NCBI GenBank assembly: GCA_000004985.1
Contig: GG738881.1
Source: Naegleria gruberi
Lineage: Eukaryota
Direction: 5' to 3' (one strand)
DNA length: 64,000 nt
The translations under genes and the position numbers were made by a program. Below are positions 24,639-64,000 of the stretch, in pieces. Position 1 is the first letter of the stretch; each line of letters starts with the position of its first letter. Under the pieces are notes generated by a model. The model did no database searches, was not told the DNA's origin, and saw only the letters and a list, made by a program, of their open reading frames with translations.

Positions 24639-24646
24639 AAAAAGGT
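24639..24646 (-). terminator. Pol III oligo-T terminator after tRNA-Cys
   Basis: Minus strand reads ACCTTTTTAAAA immediately after the discriminator. Confidence 0.5.
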
Positions 24647-24735
24647 AGGGTGGTACGTGGATCGAACACGTGACCATCGGATATCTGCTGCAAATTACAT
24701 TGCAATCCGGTGCTCTACCGCTGAGCTAACCACCC
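24647..24735 (-). tRNA. tRNA-Cys (GCA) with 17-nt intron
   Basis: Minus strand reads GGGTGGTTAGCTCAGCGGTAGAGCACCGGATTGCAA[TGTAATTTGCAGCAGAT]ATCCGATGGTCACGTGTTCGATCCACGTACCACCCT. It has a 7-bp acceptor stem, a T-loop TTCGATC, anticodon loop TTGCAAA with a canonical 37/38 intron that pairs with the anticodon, and the Cys-typical U73 discriminator. A T5 run follows at plus 24639..24643. Confidence 0.7.
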
Positions 24736-24876
24736 CTTCGATCATTACTTTTAAATATTCATTTCTATAGGAACAATATCCTTAATCAACTTTTGTTTAT
24801 AATTGTAATATTTTATTTAATTGAATAGTTTAGTTAGAAACAATTTAATATGTGAGATTTTCAAGTAGTGGTGTTG

Positions 24877-28574: not shown

Positions 28575-30413
28575 TCAAAACGTACCATCTTGACAGGATT
28601 GGTTGCTCCAACATTGTATATCAATAAATGTTGATTGAGTCATTTTACGTATGAATTCAACTCCTTCACCAGAAATACTATTTTCATAAATAGAAAGTCT
28701 GGTCAATTGGTTCATTTTACTGATTGCCTTGAATCCTTCATCACTAATATTATTATCGCAAACATCTAGATGGGTCAATTGTTTCAGTTCACTTATTGAC
28801 ATAGCTCCATCATTACCTAAATTATTTCCTTTAATCACAAGTTCAGTTAAATTTTTCAAGTCTGAAAGGTGTTTAGCTCCTTCACTACTAATAGAATTAT
28901 GGGAAATATCTAGAATAGTCAGTTTTTTCAGTTCACTTATATGCATAGCTCCATCATTACCTAAATTATTTCCTGTAATCACAAGTTTAGTTAAATTTTT
29001 CAAGTCAGTAAGGTAATTTGCTCCTTCACTGCTAATAGAATTATCGGAAATAGAAAGCTCCTTCAATTGTTTCAATTCACTAATGTATTTAGCTCCTTCA
29101 TCACTAATACGATTATAGGGGATATTGAGACAGGTCAATTGATTCAATTGACTGATGTATTTCACACCTACACCTCTCATTTCACTGTAAGGAAAATTAA
29201 GAATTGTTAAATTTTTCAATTCGCTAATGTATTCAAGTCCTTCACCATCAAAATGACTTTCAAGAATAGAAAGTTCTGTCAATTGTTTCAATTTACAAAT
29301 GTGAAAAACTCCTTTCTTATTAATATTGTTTACAGAAATGTCAAGTTTGGTTAATTGTGTCATTTCGCTTATATACTCAGCTCCTTGTTCACAAACGTAA
29401 TTCTCAGAAACAAGTAGAGTAGTTAATTTTTTCATATTTCTAATATATTTAGCACCTTCTTCACGAACATAGTTTTTAGTAACATCAAGATATGTTAATT
29501 GTTTCAATTCACTGATATATCTAGCTTGTTCAGATCTAATACCACTTTCAGAGATATAAAGACTTGTCAATTGGTTCAATTTGCTAATATATTTAGCTCC
29601 CTCAATACTAATTTCATTTTCACTAATGTGAAGAACTATCAATTTTTTCAATTGACTTATTGATTGAAGTACTTTATCGTCAATACTACATGTATTAATA
29701 TTAAGGCATGTCAACTGCTCAAATTTACCAATATATTGAGCTCCTCCACTACCTATCTTAATACGAGAAATATCAAGATTTGTTAAATGTTCCAATCCAC
29801 TCAAATATATTATTCCTGCATCACCAATACTATCATTGCAGGCAATTTCAAGACTTGTTAATTGTTTCAATTGACTGATATATTTAGCGCCTACATTGTC
29901 AATATAATTAGCAGAAATATTAAGCTTTGTTAATTTGTTAAATGATTCACTGATAATTTTAACTCCTTCGGAACCAATATAATTACCAGAAATGTAAAGA
30001 CTTGTTAATTGTTTCAATTCAGCCATGCTTTCAACATGTTCATCATCAATATCCATTCCTTGAATTTCAAGACTAGTCAATTGTTTCAATTGACCAATAT
30101 ATGTAACTGATTCGGAATCAATTTTAACTCCAACAACGTAAGGAATACAAAGATTAGTTACTGATTTCATCAATATTAATTTTTTGTAAATATTTGATAG
30201 TACTTTAATCTCAAGATTTGCAATATTTTGTAAAAATTGACCATTTACATCATTGGAATGACATTTAACAGTCATATTATGACATGTTGATAGAATGACA
30301 TTGTACCATTGTTTAGAAACTAATGCACAATTCATGACAAGAAATTTAAAATCGTCACCATAGAACGATAAAATTTCATAAATAACATCATCTTGAAAAA
30401 CTTCTCTTTCCAT
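28575..30413 (-). CDS. F-box / leucine-rich-repeat (RNI-type LRR) protein
   Basis: The N-terminus has an F-box-like motif (DDVIYEILSFYGDD…WYNVI). It is followed by ≥20 LRRs of the ~24-aa form L..LT.L.IS.N.I..EGAKYISELKQ. The 3' part contains a ~130-bp near-identical tandem DNA duplication. Confidence 0.7.
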   Translation of the reverse strand: MEREVFQDDVIYEILSFYGDDFKFLVMNCALVSKQWYNVILSTCHNMTVKCHSNDVNGQFLQNIANLEIKVLSNIYKKLILMKSVTNLCIPYVVGVKIDSESVTYIGQLKQLTSLEIQGMDIDDEHVESMAELKQLTSLYISGNYIGSEGVKIISESFNKLTKLNISANYIDNVGAKYISQLKQLTSLEIACNDSIGDAGIIYLSGLEHLTNLDISRIKIGSGGAQYIGKFEQLTCLNINTCSIDDKVLQSISQLKKLIVLHISENEISIEGAKYISKLNQLTSLYISESGIRSEQARYISELKQLTYLDVTKNYVREEGAKYIRNMKKLTTLLVSENYVCEQGAEYISEMTQLTKLDISVNNINKKGVFHICKLKQLTELSILESHFDGEGLEYISELKNLTILNFPYSEMRGVGVKYISQLNQLTCLNIPYNRISDEGAKYISELKQLKELSISDNSISSEGANYLTDLKNLTKLVITGNNLGNDGAMHISELKKLTILDISHNSISSEGAKHLSDLKNLTELVIKGNNLGNDGAMSISELKQLTHLDVCDNNISDEGFKAISKMNQLTRLSIYENSISGEGVEFIRKMTQSTFIDIQCWSNQSCQDGTF

Positions 30414-30597: not shown

Positions 30598-33468
30598 TTA
30601 TTGTCTTGTTTTGAAAGAATTGAAAAGTGAGAATACAACATCCAAGAGTGAGTTAACTATTTCCTTAAATTCAGGTCTACTCTTGAAATTGTATTCAACA
30701 CATTTACTTCCTAATGTGTGGATAAGCTTGGCTTGCTCTTCTGTAAGACATGGATAATGCTTACATAATTCTTCAACAGAAACGAAATTGATTTTGAGCA
30801 GCTGAGTATTGCTATCTTTTGTACGCACAATGCTTTGATTGGTCAAAAGCATATTCAGTGTAACTCCAAAACTGAAAGCATCCACTTTTGTGTTACCTAT
30901 TTCCGCACCTGTTACCATTTCAGCAATCTCTGGAGGCTTCCATAACTGGGTCATCATATTAATCAATTATCAACTTACCATATAGCCCGCAGTACCATAG
31001 ATTGAAGTTAGTGTTGTCAAATATTTTGCTGACTCCTTTGCTACGCTAAAATCTGTTAGTTTTACATCATTCACATATTCAATTCCATTAATAGTAATTG
31101 TTGAATAGAGAATATTGGAAGGTTTTAAATCGTGATGATAGATTTTTTCACTATGCAAAAATTCAAGTGTTTGAGCAATTTTCAAAGCAATGAACATAAT
31201 TTGAAATATTTGTCCATAACCTTGTCCTCCAAAATCATTAAAAGAATTTGTTTCATCTTTAAAACTTTTCATCAGTTCCAAAAATAATTGTACATTATTA
31301 TCATTTTCTTCATAATGAATTAACTTGACAATTCCTGGATGTTTGCTAACTTTTCTAATAATGTTTAGTTCTTCCAAATTATTTTCACATTTTATCGTTT
31401 TTCGTGCTACTGGAATATTATTCAATAATACTTTAACCACAATACCACATGCACCCTTTCCTAATTCTGTCATGCCACTTAGATCTATAATAGGATTTTG
31501 TAAAGTACAAGAAGTGATGGTATCAATGAATTTCTCAACATTATTAAGTGCAATAATCTTAGAAATGTTGTGTTAAAATTGAAAGGCATATCCTGAATAG
31601 AGGAAATATTAAGGAATGTGCTGAGTTGGGTTTTGTCGTTTGGATTCAAAAATTTGCTTAAAATTGACTTTTCTATTCCTACCACTCCTAATCGTTGTGC
31701 TGTTTTCAATACTGGAATGATTAAGTGTGTTGGAAGAGTGACATTAATTCTGTAGCAATATTTCACAATATATATCATTTCTTTTGGATAATTATCATCT
31801 GAAGATATCAAATTAAAATTAGTCATAGATGAATTTAGAATAGTTTTGTGACACTTTACAATCTCTCCATCAATTGTTAATACTAAATCGTGGTATAATT
31901 TAGTTTTGTACAAGTTTTGGAGAGTTTCTAACAAATCATTTCGATGAAAAATGTTCAACAGAGGTTCAACTGAATTCATATTAACGTTGATCTTTGGATA
32001 GGATCTTCGTTTAACCAGAGTTTTAAAATATGGAATAGCTCTATCATTATTCTCAAAGTATTGATCATATTCAGGTGTATTAGAATAAAATGCAACAAAA
32101 TCCAAACAGTATTCTTTGATTTGATTCAAATAGGAATTATTGTTATCAGAATCTCTATTCTGATAATTAGTAATTGTGTAGACAATATTTAACACACTTT
32201 TCATATCGATCATGGAAATAATTGATTCCAATAACTCATTTTGAAATTTAGACATTTCATTTGATACTTTATCCAATATAAATAATACAAATAACTTTTG
32301 TTTGATAGTTGTAAATGTGATTTCTGGATTGTAAATTAATTTATCTATCAGTAATTGTAATATTTCAGATTCACTATTGTTAAGTGATCGAATAAACTCC
32401 TCATTTAGCAATACATTTTCCAAGAATTTAGGTGCAATAATATTAATGATATCTTTAAAAACAATAATGTGACTATTTGGTAATTTGTCATATTCATATT
32501 TCTTGAAATGAATTATTTGTAAAATTTGTTCTGGTAAGATCAAGTCTTTGTCAACGATAATATTAGGTTGGCATAACAATAATTTAGCAATTTCAAAATG
32601 TTGTTTCTCTACAGTGATTCTTAATGGATTCTAATGGCATTAATTGACTAACTTATAGATATACCTACATCCTTATATTTTTAGAATCAATGATATTATT
32701 GACACTTACTTTCTAATATATTATTAAAAACAATATTTTAAACTAAAACTTACTTGCTAATATACTTTCAATATTAATATTCATATTCAATACTTACTTT
32801 CTAATTTGTTTTTAGAATTAGACGAAGCTATTACTTACATACTGATATTGTTAAATTTAATAAAATAATCATTACTTACAAGCTAAAAACAATTAATATT
32901 AAACTAATTTAATACTTACTTCCTAATAAACTTCAGACTACCAAAAATATTAATGTAATACATACGTACTAATTGTGTTAGCACAATTAAACATTTACTT
33001 ACAACCTATTTAAATTAATAATTGTATAATGATTGAATACGTACATACTATGTATTCAATAGTAAAAACACGATTGATTCGACACTTACTTTCTAGAAAA
33101 TTGTTAATATGCAAATAAATATATAATACTTGCTTCCTTATAATTTACTAGTAAATAATAGAATTGTAATTAATACTCACAGACTTAATTATTTAAATAA
33201 TTATTTAAATAATAATTTAAATACTTACTCCTAAATTGACATCAACATTCGGGACAGTCAACAATAATTTAACGATTTCCAAATGTCCCCTCTCGCAAGC
33301 TACATACAACAAGGTTTTTCCCAACGAAAATACCTTAAATTGGTAAGAATTGAAATAAAAATCATTAATGATCGGAGCCAAATCAAACTTTAACAATTCA
33401 GCAACATTTCCATCCTCCACCACTTGTAAAATTTTGTGTTTGTCAACAACTTCCACACCTCTTCTCAT
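30598..33468 (-). CDS. ankyrin-repeat – BTB/POZ – Ser/Thr-type protein kinase multidomain gene (frame break between BTB and kinase parts)
   Basis: Exon 1 (33229..33468) has ankyrin repeats (…LLYVACERGHLEIVKLLLTVPNVDVNLG). A ~598-nt repeat-filled intron (32631..33228) follows. Exon 2 (31485..32630) starts in an ankyrin repeat (NPLRITVEKQHFEIAKLLL…) and continues into a BTB-like domain (…LYHDLVLTIDGEIVKCHKTILNSSM…). The kinase ORF (30598..31473, with a small GTAAGT intron ~30924..30959) abuts in another frame: GKGACGIVVKV…VARK…HHDLKPSNIL…DFSVA…GTAGYM|LWKPPE. The 12-nt gap between the ORFs implies one gene with an indel or a non-canonical junction. Confidence 0.55.
32631..33228 (-). repeat. tandem array of 13 degenerate ~40-50-nt mini-intron-like units, each YAG + 3 nt + GTRAGT, filling one intron
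   Basis: On the plus strand the core ACTTAC(TTT)CTAAT recurs with ACTTAC at ~32704, 32748, 32792, 32833, 32874, 32914, 32964, 32997, 33039, 33084, 33128, 33175 and 33223. On the minus strand each copy reads ATTAG-AAA-GTAAGT or a close variant. The last copy is the real donor of the ankyrin exon, and the array ends at the acceptor CCATTAG|AAT of exon 2. Confidence 0.8.
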
Positions 33469-33880: not shown

Positions 33881-33953
33881 TGGGGTCAGTGAGGATCGAA
33901 CTCACGACCTTAGGATTATGAGACCTACGCGCTACCGACTGCGCCATGACCCC
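33881..33953 (-). tRNA. tRNA-Met (CAT), elongator type
   Basis: Minus strand reads GGGGTCATGGCGCAGTCGGTAGCGCGTAGGTCTCATAATCCTAAGGTCGTGAGTTCGATCCTCACTGACCCCA. The anticodon loop is CTCATAA and pairing is G1-C72, not the initiator A1:U72. It closely matches eukaryotic elongator tRNA-Met. A T7 terminator lies directly downstream. Confidence 0.85.
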
Positions 33954-38157: not shown

Positions 38158-38238
38158 CGTTGAGGATGGGATTCGAACCCACGCGGATTACTCCACCAAC
38201 TTAGCAGGCTGGCGCCTTAACCACTCGGCCACCTCAAC
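38158..38238 (-). tRNA. tRNA-Ser (GCT), class II with long variable arm
   Basis: Minus strand reads GTTGAGGTGGCCGAGTGGTTAAGGCGCCAGCCTGCTAAGTTGGTGGAGTAATCCGCGTGGGTTCGAATCCCATCCTCAACG. The D-arm is identical to animal tRNA-Ser, the anticodon loop is CTGCTAA, and the discriminator is G73. A TTTTGTC terminator follows. Confidence 0.9.
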
Positions 38239-38377
38239 TTACGATTTAATCTTTAAAATGGCAAACAGAACTGTAACACTTACAACCTTAGTAATCTCTG
38301 GAAATTCTATGCTTCAGAGGATAAAGATAGCAATTATTATGCAATATTATCCTCCAGAACTGGTAGACAGTTTATTC

Positions 38378-56847: not shown

Positions 56848-58737
56848 ATGGTCAGAGAATTAAAATCCGATGCTGAATTTAATACCGAGTTAGTCAAGGC
56901 AGGTGGTAAACTTGTTGTTGTAGACTTTTTTGCTACATGGTGTGGTCCATGTAAAAAGATTGCACCATATTTTGAACAATTAGAAACACAATATAAGGAT
57001 GTTCTCTTTTTAAAGGTTGATGTGGATATTTGCCAGCAAACAGCTGCCAAGTGCAATATTTCAGCCATGCCAACATTCCAATTATTCAAGAATAGATCCA
57101 AAGTTGAAGAAGTTGTCGGAGGAGATGTTCAAAAACTTGTCCAATTAATTAATCAACACAAGGGTGTTTCATCCTCTTCATCTTCGTCATCATCATCACA
57201 AGTTGAAGATAATGAACCAATACCAAGTCATCTTTCCACTGCGGAACAATTCAAAGAGGAAGGAAACAATAGATACAAGAAGGGATCATACAAAAAAGCT
57301 GTGGAATGTTATACAAGAGCTATTGAATTGGATCCAAGCCAAGCACCAATTTATACTAACAGAGCTGCTTGCAACTTACAATTACTCAAGTATAAGAAGG
57401 TTGTTGAAGATGGTTTAAAGGCTGCTCAATTGGATCCAAAATTCTCAAAGGCGTATCTTCGCGCTGGTCAAGGTTATTTACAAATGGGTAAAACTAGAGA
57501 AGCTAGGGAACAATTCGATTTGGCTCTTAAATTGGAACCAAATAGTGACTTGTATAAGAGAGAAAGAGAAAATTCTCTCAAAATTGAAAAGTACTTGTCG
57601 AATGGTAAGAGCTTTTTAGAACAATCTCTCTATAAGGAAGCTAGTAATGAAATGGATTTGGCATTCCAAATTGCTCCTCACTCAGTGCCATTGAAACTTT
57701 GTAAAATTGAAGCATTGATTGGATTGAAGGAACTTGATACTGCTGCCAAGGAAGCTAGCGTTATTCTTCGTGATATTGACAATAACAATTCCGAAGCTCT
57801 CTTCTTGAGAGGTCAAGCATTGTACTATGCTGGTAGTACCGAAAGTGGATTGAGTCATGTCACTCAAGCTTTAATGATTGATCCAGACAATCAAAAATGT
57901 TTACAATTCAGAAAGCAAATCAAGAAGATTGAACAATTGAAAGAGGAAGGCAACAAACTTTTGCGAGCTGGTAAATTCCAAGAATCCTATGATGAATATT
58001 CTAAAGCCATTGAAATTGATCCAAAGAATGCCAATTTGAATGCAGTTCTTTATTGCAATAGAGCTGCTGCTGCCACTAAACTCGGAAAACATCAAGTAGC
58101 CATCAAGGATGCTACCAAAGCCATTGAATTGAATGAAAATTATACAAAGGCATACATTAGAAGAGGTTCCAGCTATGTTGAACTTGAACAATACGAAGAT
58201 GCCATGCGTGACTATAGTAAGGCCCATGAATTGGACAAGGACGATGAACAAGTTGCACAAAAATTGAAGGAAGTCAGAAAGCTCTACAAGCAAAGCAAGA
58301 AGAAGGACTTTTACAAGATTCTTGGTGTGGAAAGAAATGCCTCTACTGATGAAATCAAAAAGGCCTACAAGAAGTTAGCCATGCAATGGCACCCTGACAG
58401 ATATATGGACGAAGAGGAAAAGAAGAATGCTGAAAATAAGTTTAAGGACATTACAGAGGCATACAGTATTCTCTCTGATCCACAAAAGAGACAACAATTC
58501 GATTCTGGCGCAATGGATGCTGATTTTGATGGTTTTGGTGGAATGGGAGGAGGAATGGGTGGTATTGACCCTAATGACATCTTTAGAATGTTCTTTGGTG
58601 GAGGTGGTATGGGTGGAGGAATGGGAGGTGGATTTGGTGGTATGGGAGGTGGAATGGGAGGAATGGGAGGAATGGGAGGAGGAGGAAGAAGAGGAGGCCG
58701 AGGTGGAATGGGTGGCCAACAATCATTCTTCTTTTAA
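56848..58737 (+). CDS. thioredoxin-domain + TPR repeats + DnaJ J-domain protein (DNAJC7-like), Gly/Met-rich C-terminus
   Basis: The N-terminal thioredoxin fold has [10 protein letters not shown]. There are ~9 TPR motifs. The J domain ([32 protein letters not shown]) is followed by a (GGMGG)n tail. Confidence 0.85.
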
Positions 58738-63614: not shown

Positions 63615-64000
63615 TTAACACCATCTAACACCTCCAACACAACCATATCCACCATAACCACCATAACCACCATATCCACCATAGAATGGAACACCATATC
63701 CACCATAACCACCATAGAATGGCATTGAATAAGCACTTCCATAATTGTTTCCATAACTAGTTGGTCCAGTATAATAAGATCCATAACTTGAATATGGATT
63801 TGAGTTGACTGCATTCACTTGATTCCAATAGGATTGAGTATTTTGTCCATATTGATTGTAATTTCCTCCAGTGACTCCATAGTTAGAACCAGAACCTCCT
63901 GATGTACCATAATTAGTACCATAATTGTTGCTATATTGGCAGTTGACCAAGCAAGAAGCGATGAGTACAGTGGCTACAAGAGCAATGATTAGTTTGTTCA
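63615..64000 (-). CDS. secreted Gly/Tyr/Asn-rich low-complexity protein (5' end beyond window)
   Basis: The minus strand at the window edge encodes …NKLIIALVATVLIASCLVNCQ (a signal peptide), then YSNNYGTNYGTSGGSGSNYG…GGYGGYGGYGCVGG. The start codon lies past position 64000. Confidence 0.5.
   Translation of the reverse strand, partial: NKLIIALVATVLIASCLVNCQYSNNYGTNYGTSGGSGSNYGVTGGNYNQYGQNTQSYWNQVNAVNSNPYSSYGSYYTGPTSYGNNYGSAYSMPFYGGYGGYGVPFYGGYGGYGGYGGYGCVGGVRWC

What the first reader, a model, noticed from the sequence alone, without database searches (positions are those of the whole stretch)
32631..33228. An intron composed of 13 tandem mini-intron-like units (YAG + 3 nt + GTAAGT), possibly 12 serial 3-nt microexons
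Between the first ankyrin exon (donor GGA|GTAAGT at ~33228) and the next exon (acceptor CCATTAG|AAT at ~32631) the DNA is a 40-50-nt periodic array. On the minus strand its conserved core reads ATTAG-AAA-GTAAGT, with variants CAA, TAT, CTT, GAA, TAC, GTT, TCT between the AG and the GT. Each unit thus looks like a minimal intron (in the size range of this genome's real 38-76-nt introns) followed by a 3-nt spacer. None of the 12 spacers is a stop codon, which is not statistically decisive. The array is either a tandem amplification of a whole short intron plus flanking codon, or a chain of 3-nt microexons that would add ~12 residues (S-E-K-Y-V-Y-E-L-Y-K-Q-K) between two ankyrin repeats. I do not know of a described case of a tandemly amplified functional-looking intron unit like this.
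Basis: seen in the sequence. Interest (0 to 1): 0.75.

Follow-up and report, generated by a model that had tools for sequence, protein, structure and literature searches.

The report
Chain of one-codon exons in Naegleria
Between two ankyrin-repeat exons of a Naegleria gruberi gene lie 14 back-to-back miniature introns separated by 13 exons of exactly one codon each; the sequence pattern says these splice sites have been kept by selection, an arrangement I could not find described anywhere, but no RNA data could be reached to prove it.

Summary
Window 32631-33228 (minus strand) tiles exactly into 14 intron-like units of 34-45 nt (G[T/C]RNGT...[Y/A]AG), separated 13 times by exactly 3 nt: SEKYVYELYKQKD, with no stop codon.

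It is not a satellite. TRF finds no period and unit interiors are near saturation. Splice positions match the consensus in 89/91 cells, against 51% in the spacers and 64% in the flanks. That signature points to purifying selection on 28 splice sites and on the 3-nt spacing.

The gene is N. gruberi NAEGRDRAFT_69871 (ankyrin-BTB-kinase). Its GenBank model already chains 8 of the 13 codons as exons, by prediction only.

A metagenome scan returned mostly satellites plus one independent analogue, L002. There, four one-codon exons (K, W, N, S) sit at the same ankyrin loop, complete a 33-residue repeat and match residues in homologues.

Best reading (about 0.6): a chain of paralogous mini-introns removed one after another, adding up to 13 loop residues; any exon skipping stays in frame.

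Caveats: there is no transcript evidence, units 1-3 are weak, and an apparent frameshift downstream may mean the gene is dying.

Decisive test: public RNA-seq (PRJEB23822) or RT-PCR across 32600-33260.

The parts
33229..33468 (-). Exon 1 of NAEGRDRAFT_69871: ATG to ...LLLTVPNVDVNLG (first ankyrin repeat), ending at a codon boundary (GGA|GTAAGT).
   Evidence: Pfam Ank residues 50-80; identical to P0001
32631..33228 (-). The whole array: 14 mini-intron units plus 13 one-codon spacers, 598 nt, about 20% GC.
33184..33228 (-). Unit 1, 45 nt, GTAAGT...TTAAG. AAG acceptor, no YTRAY motif; weak.
33181..33183 (-). Spacer 1, TCT (S). Used as an exon in the GenBank model.
33137..33180 (-). Unit 2, 44 nt, GTGAGT...ATAAG. 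AAG acceptor, competing TAG 11 nt upstream; weak.
33134..33136 (-). Spacer 2, GAA (E).
33093..33133 (-). Unit 3, 41 nt, GCAAGT...TCTAG. GC donor; TTAAC 11 nt from the 3' end.
33090..33092 (-). Spacer 3, AAA (K). Exon in the GenBank model.
33048..33089 (-). Unit 4, 42 nt, GTAAGT...CATAG.
33045..33047 (-). Spacer 4, TAT (Y).
33006..33044 (-). Unit 5, 39 nt, GTACGT...AATAG.
33003..33005 (-). Spacer 5, GTT (V). Exon in the GenBank model.
32969..33002 (-). Unit 6, 34 nt (the shortest), GTAAGT...CTAAC...ATTAG.
32966..32968 (-). Spacer 6, TAC (Y).
32923..32965 (-). Unit 7, 43 nt, GTATGT...ATTAG, with internal AGs at positions 28 and 35.
32920..32922 (-). Spacer 7, GAA (E).
32883..32919 (-). Unit 8, 37 nt, GTAAGT...TTTAG.
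32880..32882 (-). Spacer 8, CTT (L). Exon in the GenBank model.
32842..32879 (-). Unit 9, 38 nt, GTAAGT...ATCAG.
32839..32841 (-). Spacer 9, TAT (Y). Exon in the GenBank model.
32801..32838 (-). Unit 10, 38 nt, GTAAGT...ATTAG.
32798..32800 (-). Spacer 10, AAA (K). Exon in the GenBank model.
32757..32797 (-). Unit 11, 41 nt, GTAAGT...ATTAG, with an internal AAAG 8 nt upstream of the end.
32754..32756 (-). Spacer 11, CAA (Q). Exon in the GenBank model.
32713..32753 (-). Unit 12, 41 nt, GTAAGT...ATTAG.
32710..32712 (-). Spacer 12, AAA (K). Exon in the GenBank model.
32672..32709 (-). Unit 13, 38 nt, GTAAGT...ATAAG (AAG acceptor).
32669..32671 (-). Spacer 13, GAT (D).
32631..32668 (-). Unit 14, 38 nt, GTAGGT...CCATTAG, ending immediately before the N-P-L of the second ankyrin repeat.
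31485..32630 (-). Next exon: NPLRITVEKQHFEIAKLLL... (ankyrin repeat 2), a linker and a BTB domain. The frame is open down to the TAG at 31487-31485.
31478..31576 (-). Zone where the reading frame must change between the BTB part and the kinase part. The only canonical-dinucleotide rescue that keeps the kinase G-loop is a weak 62-nt GTTGAG...TAAG intron at 31539-31478. Possibly a frameshift, i.e. a pseudogene.
30598..31477 (-). Protein kinase domain of the same gene. It contains a bona fide short intron at 30978-30937 (42 nt, GTAAGT...GGAAG), whose removal gives GTAGYM|PPE.

Best explanation
The 598 nt between the two ankyrin exons of N. gruberi NAEGRDRAFT_69871 is a chain of 14 related minimal spliceosomal introns, each with its own donor and acceptor. 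They are separated by 13 exons of one codon.

Inferred mechanism: introns in this genome are short and are probably recognised across the intron. A 3-nt exon is too short for the upstream acceptor and the next donor to be bound at the same time, so the units must be removed one after another, most simply 5' to 3' as they are transcribed. Each step adds one codon to the growing exon and places the next donor directly behind it. This is a ratchet like recursive splicing, except that every step leaves a codon.

Full use of the chain inserts S-E-K-Y-V-Y-E-L-Y-K-Q-K-D into the loop between ankyrin repeats 1 and 2. All units are phase 0 and all exons are 3 nt, so pairing a donor with a later acceptor stays in frame and only shortens the loop by 1 to 13 residues. 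That makes the arrangement tolerant of splicing errors.

The array arose by local copying of one short intron. Whether the copies took a flanking codon with them or were inserted between pre-existing codons is unresolved.

Shown: the anatomy, frame compatibility, the conservation signature, and an independent analogue. Inferred: actual splicing, its order, and inclusion of the codons.
For: (1) Exact tiling into 14 units and 13 three-nt spacers.

(2) Conservation is confined to splice positions. AG is 13/13, G+1 13/13, T+2 12/13 (the exception is a GC donor with an otherwise perfect GCAAGT), A+3 12/13, G+5 13/13 and T+6 13/13, i.e. 89/91 consensus matches. The three spacer positions match in 20/39 and the 15 flanking positions in 125/195, and composition alone gives 50% (Fisher 3e-10 and 1.5e-11).

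(3) Interiors are nearly saturated (z=3.4 vs shuffles, no neighbour effect, TRF silent). Their lengths vary from 34 to 45 nt, yet all 13 spacers are exactly 3 nt.

(4) The donor variants in the array (GTAAGT x9, GTGAGT, GTACGT, GTATGT, GTAGGT, GCAAGT) are largely the spectrum seen in 11 other likely introns of the window (GTAAGT, GTAGGT, GTATGT, GTACGT); GTGAGT and GCAAGT occur only in the array. AAG acceptors occur in both sets.

(5) YTRAY lies 5-30 nt from the 3' end in 11/14 units vs 6.9 +/- 1.9 in shuffles (P=0.027).

(6) Unit sizes of 34-45 nt overlap the short end of real introns here (42-103 nt). The same gene has a 42-nt intron whose removal gives the kinase motif GTAGYM|PPE.

(7) The GenBank/JGI model XP_002674929.1 is reproduced exactly by exon 1 plus 8 of the spacers.

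(8) Independent analogue L002 (metagenome contig, 17% GC)...DVNAKN|K|W|N|S|TPLH... with five introns of 35-44 nt. The four codons fill columns occupied in homologues (DKWKE-TPLH, DKWGQ-TPL) and raise Pfam Ank_5 from 75.6 to 94.6 bits.

(9) This loop varies from 0 to about 16 residues in homologues and paralogues, so a 13-residue insert is tolerated.

(10) No Rfam family matches the array.
Against: No transcript, EST or lariat evidence could be reached. No RNA-derived protein for this gene exists in the searched protein collection: P0001's cluster has a single member.

Without the insert the junction reads DVNLG-NPL, which is the commonest short-loop form in homologues, so the one-big-intron product is also a good protein.

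Units 1-3 are weak (two AAG acceptors, a GC donor, two without YTRAY). Units 2, 7 and 11 carry competing AGs that would break the frame if used.

Most units are shorter than any other intron seen in the window.

The gene shows an apparent frameshift between the BTB and kinase parts, with only a weak intron rescue, so it may no longer be functional.

The GenBank model is an ab initio path with implausible jumps and is not evidence of expression.

The absence of stops in 13 spacers is not significant.
Confidence: 0.6

Rival explanations
1. One ordinary 598-nt intron is spliced from the outer donor (33228) to the outer acceptor (32631). The internal splice-like sites are relics of an old tandem amplification of the original short intron and are not used, or are used only as decoys.
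For: The no-insert junction DVNLG|NPL matches the commonest repeat form in homologues such as P0002 and P0003. Pfam scores with and without the insert are nearly the same for the Naegleria protein. Some units have weak signals or competing AGs. No transcript evidence is available.
Against: Unused sites should decay like the spacers and interiors next to them. Instead 89/91 splice cells are intact against 51-64% elsewhere, and all 13 spacers keep 3 nt although unit lengths vary by 11 nt. Nine perfect GTAAGT donors, each followed at about 40 nt by an AG, would be hard for a short-intron spliceosome to ignore (inference). The other introns in the window are 42-103 nt, so 598 nt would be an outlier.
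Confidence: 0.15
2. The array was once a working chain of mini-introns, but the gene is now a pseudogene (frameshift between BTB and kinase). The array is a not-yet-decayed fossil with no present function.
For: The frame changes between about 31576 and 31488, and only a weak GTTGAG...AAG 62-nt intron could rescue it. The GenBank model has to skip the BTB domain and the kinase N-lobe to stay open. No RNA-derived protein for this gene was found. The 5' units look eroded.
Against: All 14 donors and 14 acceptors and all the long exons' reading frames are otherwise intact, so any inactivation is recent. The frameshift could be an assembly error or could be bridged by the weak intron. This rival concerns present function, not what the array is.
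Confidence: 0.2
3. A generic satellite or minisatellite that merely happens to contain splice-like words, like most of the metagenomic hits to the same pattern.
For: More than 120 metagenome contigs match GTAAGT..TAGNNNGTAAGT..TAGNNNGTAAGT, and nearly all are satellites or (GTAA)n-like repeats.
Against: Those satellites have units over 90% identical or are low-complexity, with identical spacers. Here TRF finds nothing, interiors are near-random and the spacers differ. The motif is absent from the other 63 kb of the window, apart from one chance site next to a tRNA. The array sits exactly between two in-frame exons.
Confidence: 0.03

Closest known systems
Isolated 3-nt microexons in animals (e.g. 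RPS24; the Drosophila homothorax micro-Ex8) (PMC11162997, PMC7392893, PMC8042270)
   Same: Exons of exactly 3 nt that add one residue in frame and are bounded by canonical splice sites. Strong flanking sites are needed.
   Different: Those are single exons, or two or three, embedded in long introns and often regulated by enhancers. Here 13 one-codon exons follow one another at about 41-nt intervals, between minimal introns that are related to each other.
Schistosoma micro-exon genes (MEGs) (bioRxiv 10.1101/2023.06.21.545858; PMC4350168)
   Same: Runs of symmetric microexons whose lengths are multiples of 3, so that any combination stays in frame. This has been proposed as a source of protein variation.
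   Different: MEG exons are 3-81 bp, separated by long introns (up to 5 kb), and make up most of small secreted proteins. Here all exons are 3 nt, the introns are 34-45 nt and paralogous, and the array fills one loop of an intracellular ankyrin-BTB-kinase protein.
Recursive splicing at ratchet points (Drosophila Ubx and others) (PMC5126111; bioRxiv 10.1101/006163)
   Same: Stepwise 5'-to-3' removal of an intervening region, with an AG followed closely by a consensus GTAAGT that serves as the next donor.
   Different: Ratchet points juxtapose AG|GT (a zero-length exon) and leave nothing behind; they subdivide very long introns. Here 3 nt lie between AG and GT, so each step would leave a codon, and the whole region is only 598 nt.
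Intron gain by tandem genomic duplication (PMC3265369, PMC4974935, PMC2891723)
   Same: Local duplication creates additional functional introns in one step, and the neighbouring introns are paralogous.
   Different: In that model an exonic segment containing AGGT is duplicated, the new intron is made of former exon sequence, and the mRNA is unchanged. Here the copied unit is an AT-rich intron, it has been copied about 13 times, and a codon lies between copies.
Human alternatively spliced introns derived from tandem arrays (Zhuo et al., PNAS 2007; recalled from memory, not retrieved here)
   Same: Tandem repeats in which each unit carries splice signals, giving multiple alternative intron boundaries.
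   Different: Those are young, highly similar repeats that produce alternative 5'/3' site choice within one intron. They are not diverged units with conserved signals and fixed one-codon spacers.

Membership tests
U2-type GT-AG spliceosomal intron (each of the 14 units) | 5' splice site matching the genome's consensus (GTRNGT) | tested here: met
   13/14 units are GT and 1 is GCAAGT. +5 G and +6 T are present in 14/14. The variant spectrum largely matches 11 other introns of the window; GTGAGT and GCAAGT occur only in the array.
U2-type GT-AG spliceosomal intron (each of the 14 units) | 3' AG preceded by a non-G base | tested here: met
   TAG x10, CAG x1, AAG x3, no GAG. AAG is also used by other introns here.
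U2-type GT-AG spliceosomal intron (each of the 14 units) | Branch-point motif at a suitable distance from the 3' end | tested here: inconclusive
   YTRAY lies 5-30 nt upstream of the 3' end in 11/14 units vs 6.9 +/- 1.9 in shuffles (P=0.027). However, only 6 of the 11 reference introns show it, so the motif is poorly defined in this genome.
U2-type GT-AG spliceosomal intron (each of the 14 units) | Length within the range the organism splices | tested here: inconclusive
   Units are 34-45 nt and other introns in the window are 42-103 nt. Only 4 units reach 42 nt or more, and the genome-wide minimum is unknown.
U2-type GT-AG spliceosomal intron (each of the 14 units) | Absent from the mature transcript | not testable with these tools
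   No N. gruberi RNA data could be reached. RNA-seq exists as PRJEB23822.
Coding microexon | Very short exon flanked by splice sites that preserves the reading frame | tested here: met
   There are 13 spacers of 3 nt, all phase 0 and none a stop codon. Exon 1 and exon 2 are in frame with any subset of them.
Coding microexon | Encoded residues correspond to residues in homologues | tested here: inconclusive
   In Naegleria the loop length varies from 0 to 16 residues in homologues and there is no clear sequence match. In the analogue L002 the feature is met: K-W-N-S fill occupied columns and Ank_5 rises by 19 bits.
Minisatellite / tandem repeat | Head-to-tail copies with detectable overall similarity | tested here: not met
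   TRF reports no 37-48-nt period at minimum score 30. Interior similarity is barely above shuffles (z=3.4). The repeat finder gives 60-75% identity over stretches dominated by the junction motif.
Recursive-splicing ratchet point | Acceptor AG immediately followed by a donor GT (zero-length exon) | tested here: not met
   Exactly 3 nt separate AG and GT at all 13 junctions.
Schistosoma-type micro-exon gene | Most of the coding region is built from symmetric microexons separated by long introns | tested here: not met
   The microexons are symmetric, but the introns are 34-45 nt and the array contributes 13 of more than 700 residues of an ANK-BTB-kinase protein.
Introner / introner-like element | Many near-identical intron copies dispersed over unrelated genes | not testable with these tools
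   Only this 64-kb window of the genome was available. No other intron in it resembles the units beyond the splice consensus.
Intron created by tandem duplication of an AGGT-containing exon segment | The intron body is a copy of adjacent exon sequence | tested here: not met
   Unit interiors are 20% GC, closed in all frames, and unlike the flanking exons.

The most novel reading that the evidence does not exclude
Serial one-codon exons are a real, recurrent gene architecture. A minimal intron can copy itself locally to successive codon boundaries, a distinct mode of intron gain. This yields chains of 3-nt exons that the spliceosome resolves sequentially. In ankyrin-repeat proteins of at least two unrelated AT-rich protists, such a chain sits in the inter-repeat loop, where in-frame skipping could give loop-length isoforms from a single gene (up to 2^13 combinations in the Naegleria gene).
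Probability: 0.3. Interest if true: 0.85.

Novelty: new variant of a known kind. Interest (0 to 1): 0.7.

Why it matters
If the chain is spliced as read, it would be the densest known packing of introns: one per codon for 13 codons.

It would also be a natural test of how small an exon can be, and of how adjacent splice sites that cannot be occupied together are resolved. That makes ordered, co-transcriptional splicing directly testable in a simple organism.

It would be a clear example of introns multiplying locally, which is relevant to the long-running question of how new introns arise. The two examples give opposite hints (codon copied with the intron, or intron inserted between old codons), and more genomes could settle this.

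Practically, it shows that gene predictors and read mappers that forbid tiny exons will mis-annotate such loci.

Tried and rejected
(1) The ninth AG-NNN-GTAAGT site, at 38288(-), is intergenic and lies next to tRNA-Ser. I read it as chance.

(2) The metagenome scan for three chained junctions returned over 120 contigs. All but L002 are satellites with units over 90% identical (L088, L012, L080, L115, L108) or (GTAA)n/(GTAG)n-like low complexity (L006, L046, L079, L027, L103). They are not analogues.

(4) The L002 protein search gave only generic ankyrin hits, so its organism is still unknown. A check of its genetic code used the wrong frame and was dropped.

(5) Literature searches for Naegleria microexons, tandem introns, 3-nt exons in series, or intron gain with microexons found no description of such an array.

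(6) Rfam finds nothing in the array and only three tRNAs in the window, so hosting of snoRNAs or other known RNAs is rejected.

(7) The bacterial promoter/terminator scan is irrelevant to this eukaryote.

(9) Canonical intron rescue of the BTB-to-kinase frame change produced only weak candidates.

(10) I tried to decide between 'intron plus codon duplicated' and 'intron inserted between codons' from spacer similarity and neighbour similarity. The array is too saturated for either test to work.
Full report
WHAT IS THERE. On the minus strand the window carries a gene whose first exon (ATG at 33468, ending ...LLLTVPNVDVNLG at 33229) and next exon (from 32630: NPLRITVEKQHFEIAKLLL...) encode successive ankyrin repeats. 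A BTB domain and a protein kinase domain follow. The 598 nt between the two exons tile without remainder into 14 units of 45, 44, 41, 42, 39, 34, 43, 37, 38, 38, 41, 41, 38 and 38 nt. Each unit begins G[T/C]RNGT and ends [Y/A]AG. The pattern is far beyond chance. AG-NNN-GTAAGT occurs 9 times in 128 kb of both strands, 8 of them here. AGNNNGTRNGT occurs 19 times against 6.6 +/- 2.4 in shuffles, 12 of them here. The single outside GTAAGT hit, at 38288, is intergenic beside a tRNA-Ser.

WHOSE GENE. The exons are identical to Naegleria gruberi XP_002674929.1 / EFC42185.1, locus NAEGRDRAFT_69871, and the window's 33% GC fits that genome. The deposited protein reads ...VDVNLG-SKVLYKQK-KYEYDK.... I rebuilt its first 88 residues exactly from exon 1 plus eight of the 3-nt spacers. 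So the public annotation already contains a partial chain of one-codon exons. It is an ab initio path, however. It then jumps 129 nt (43 codons) into exon 2, and later skips the BTB domain and the kinase N-lobe through a GTTGAA 'donor', evidently to avoid a frame change. It is not evidence of expression.

NOT A SATELLITE: THE CONSERVATION PATTERN. Tandem Repeats Finder reports no 37-48-nt period. Unit interiors are barely more alike than shuffled sequence (z=3.4), with no neighbour effect. Across the 13 internal junctions, information is confined to AG(-2,-1), G+1, T+2, A+3, G+5 and T+6, where 89 of 91 cells match the consensus. The two exceptions are a GC donor in an otherwise perfect GCAAGT, and a +3 G. 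The three spacer positions lying between those motifs match their modal base in only 20/39 cells, and 15 flanking positions match in 125/195. Composition alone gives about 50% (Fisher 3e-10 and 1.5e-11). Unit lengths range over 11 nt (SD 3.0), so indels were frequent, yet none of the 13 spacers departs from 3 nt. The donor variants in the array are largely those seen in 11 other ORF-bridging introns of the window (GTAAGT, GTAGGT, GTATGT, GTACGT); GTGAGT and the GC donor occur only in the array. AAG acceptors occur in both sets. A YTRAY motif lies 5-30 nt from the 3' end in 11/14 units, against 6.9 +/- 1.9 in shuffles (P=0.027). The array matches no Rfam family. The simplest reading is purifying selection on 28 splice sites and on the reading frame. 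In other words, each unit is, or until recently was, spliced on its own.

ARE THE UNITS RELATED? Positions outside the general consensus are array-specific. +7 is A in 11/14 units against 1/11 other introns (p=0.001), and -5 A and -4 T are also enriched (p about 0.016). This fits common ancestry. It could equally reflect selection for extended pairing with the 5' end of U1 snRNA (GUAAGUAU against AUACUUAC). That is an inference from the general conservation of U1; I did not test it in Naegleria. Such pairing would compensate for the unconstrained exon side of a one-codon exon.

CAN SUCH SHORT UNITS BE INTRONS HERE? Likely real introns in the window are 42-103 nt long. The shortest lies in the same gene: removing 30978-30937 (42 nt, GTAAGT...GGAAG) gives GTAGYM|PPE, the expected kinase motif, and is also the choice in the deposited model. 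Ten of the 14 units are shorter than that, so their spliceability is plausible but unproven.

AN INDEPENDENT ANALOGUE. Nearly all are ordinary satellites with units over 90% identical, or (GTAA)n-like repeats. That is a useful negative control, showing what a splice-like satellite looks like. One contig is different. L002 (Ga0207864_1037532, 1425 nt, 17% GC) encodes ...[29 protein letters not shown] | K | W | N | S | [29 protein letters not shown] |.... Five introns of 35-44 nt (GTAAGTATA...TTTTGTAG) separate four exons of 3 nt each: AAA, TGG, AAT, AGT. The 29-residue exon plus these four residues gives the canonical 33-residue ankyrin repeat. In an alignment with homologues the four residues fill occupied columns and resemble them (P0035 ARDKWKE-TPLHFAS; P0036 YKDKWGQ-TPL), and leaving them out opens a 4-residue gap. 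Pfam Ank_5, the model that spans the inter-repeat loop, scores 94.6 bits with them and 75.6 without, and three other ankyrin models gain about 2 bits. So in a second, compositionally very different organism, serial one-codon exons sit at the same place in an ankyrin repeat (after DVNxx, ending immediately before xPL), and there they look like genuine coding sequence.

DOES THE NAEGLERIA PROTEIN NEED THE INSERT? This cannot be decided. Without it the junction reads DVNLG-NPL, the commonest short-loop form in homologues (P0002, P0003: DVNKG-KPL and similar). With it the loop is 13 residues longer. Such lengths also occur at this spot: P0003 DVNMG-SEVFGSMERDRFH-TPL, P0002 DVNKE-CKDWYISEDDRSS-TPL, the N. 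gruberi paralogue P0014 DVNKG-FTYHFISIKLGQEEME-SPLH, and P0008 and P0015. Pfam scores barely differ between the two forms. Both products are therefore acceptable proteins. That is what one expects if partial or complete skipping is harmless, and it may explain how such an array could grow.

MECHANISM PROPOSED. Shown: the anatomy, the frame, the selection signature and the analogue. Inferred: a 3-nt exon cannot hold the factors that recognise the upstream acceptor and the downstream donor at the same time, so the units must be removed sequentially, most simply 5' to 3' as they are transcribed. Each ligation adds one codon and brings the next GTAAGT directly behind the growing exon. This resembles recursive splicing (PMC5126111; bioRxiv 10.1101/006163), except that AG and GT are 3 nt apart, so a codon remains at each step. 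Any donor paired with a later acceptor stays in frame. On origin: the units were copied locally from one short intron. That both known cases lie in an insertion-tolerant loop favours duplication of 'intron plus codon', which lengthens the protein. The match of L002's K-W to homologues favours insertion of intron copies between pre-existing codons. The Naegleria array is too saturated to decide.

CAVEATS. (i) There is no RNA evidence. N. gruberi loci and transcripts could not be retrieved, and the protein collection holds no RNA-derived version of this gene. Public RNA-seq does exist (PRJEB23822; PMC6142364). (ii) Units 1-3 are weak (AAG, AAG, GC donor; two lack YTRAY). Units 2, 7 and 11 carry competing AGs which, if used, would shift the frame. 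The true chain may be shorter than 13. (iii) The reading frame changes between the BTB and kinase parts (about 31576-31488), and only a weak 62-nt GTTGAG...AAG intron would bridge it. The gene may be a recent pseudogene, or the assembly may carry an error. (iv) The evidence consists of one locus plus one metagenomic analogue.

COMPARISON WITH WHAT IS KNOWN. Single 3-nt microexons are documented in animals (PMC7392893, PMC11162997, PMC8042270). Runs of symmetric microexons characterise the schistosome MEGs, but with long introns and in small secreted proteins (bioRxiv 10.1101/2023.06.21.545858). Intron birth by tandem duplication is established, but there the intron is former exon sequence and the mRNA is unchanged (PMC3265369, PMC4974935, PMC2891723). 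Six literature searches found no description of a chain of one-codon exons between paralogous minimal introns, in Naegleria or elsewhere. I therefore class it as a new variant of known kinds (spliceosomal introns, microexons, local intron duplication), not as a new category.

VERDICT. The best explanation, held at about 0.6, is a chain of individually spliced mini-introns that leaves up to 13 extra loop residues. Interest is 0.7: the arrangement is striking and cheaply testable with existing RNA-seq, but it is unproven at the RNA level and sits in a gene that may be decaying.

Noticed in passing
L002 (metagenome contig Ga0207864_1037532), 1025-1403, + strand: A second case of serial one-codon exons. 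An ankyrin exon is followed by AAA, TGG, AAT and AGT, each between introns of 35-44 nt, and then by a 94%-identical ankyrin exon followed by an intron that starts like the first one. The whole exon-plus-array block therefore seems to have been duplicated. The organism is unknown (17% GC).
   Followed up: partly
window 31478-31576 (-): The reading frame changes between the BTB part and the kinase part of NAEGRDRAFT_69871. There is no convincing intron, only a weak GTTGAG...AAG candidate of 62 nt. The GenBank model avoids the problem by skipping the BTB domain and the kinase N-lobe. This is a possible pseudogene or an assembly error.
   Followed up: partly
window 33881-33953 (-), 38158-38238 (-), 24644-24736 (-): Three tRNA genes (Met-CAT, Ser-GCT, Ile-AAT). 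tRNA-Met lies 413 nt upstream of the ATG of the ankyrin gene, on the same strand. The 93-nt tRNA-Ile is long enough to contain an intron.
   Followed up: no
P0014 (N. gruberi paralogue), loop DVNKG-FTYHFISIKLGQEEME-SPLH: The paralogue's predicted protein has a 16-residue, oddly composed loop at the same ankyrin position. It could be a read-through short in-frame intron or another microexon chain. Its DNA could not be retrieved.
   Followed up: no
P0002 and P0003 (ENA metagenome ankyrin proteins): Most repeats in these proteins have the short loop DVNxG-xPL, but one repeat in each has exactly 13 extra residues at that spot, the same number as the Naegleria spacers. The P0003 insert also starts with S-E. 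This may be coincidence.
   Followed up: no
window 28575-30413 (-), TRF rows 28734-29101 and 29350-30010: The neighbouring gene is an F-box-like / leucine-rich-repeat ORF of 612 aa with 72- and 144-nt tandem periodicity (24-residue LRRs, some copies 83-86% identical), pointing to recent internal repeat duplication.
   Followed up: no
window 58600-58712 and 63616-63722: Short-period coding-like repeats: a GGA/ATG-rich one with periods of 9-21 nt, and ACCATAACC with a 9-nt period. They probably encode Gly-rich or Gly/Tyr-rich low-complexity protein segments.
   Followed up: no
Loci L001-L120 (many Ga0209628/Ga0209629/Ga0123354/Ga0131853 contigs): Many metagenome contigs carry (GTAA)n/(GTAG)n-like microsatellites or 40-55-nt satellites that contain perfect TAG-NNN-GTAAGT words. 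Motif searches for recursive-splice-like or microexon-like sites will hit these unless unit identity is checked.
   Followed up: yes
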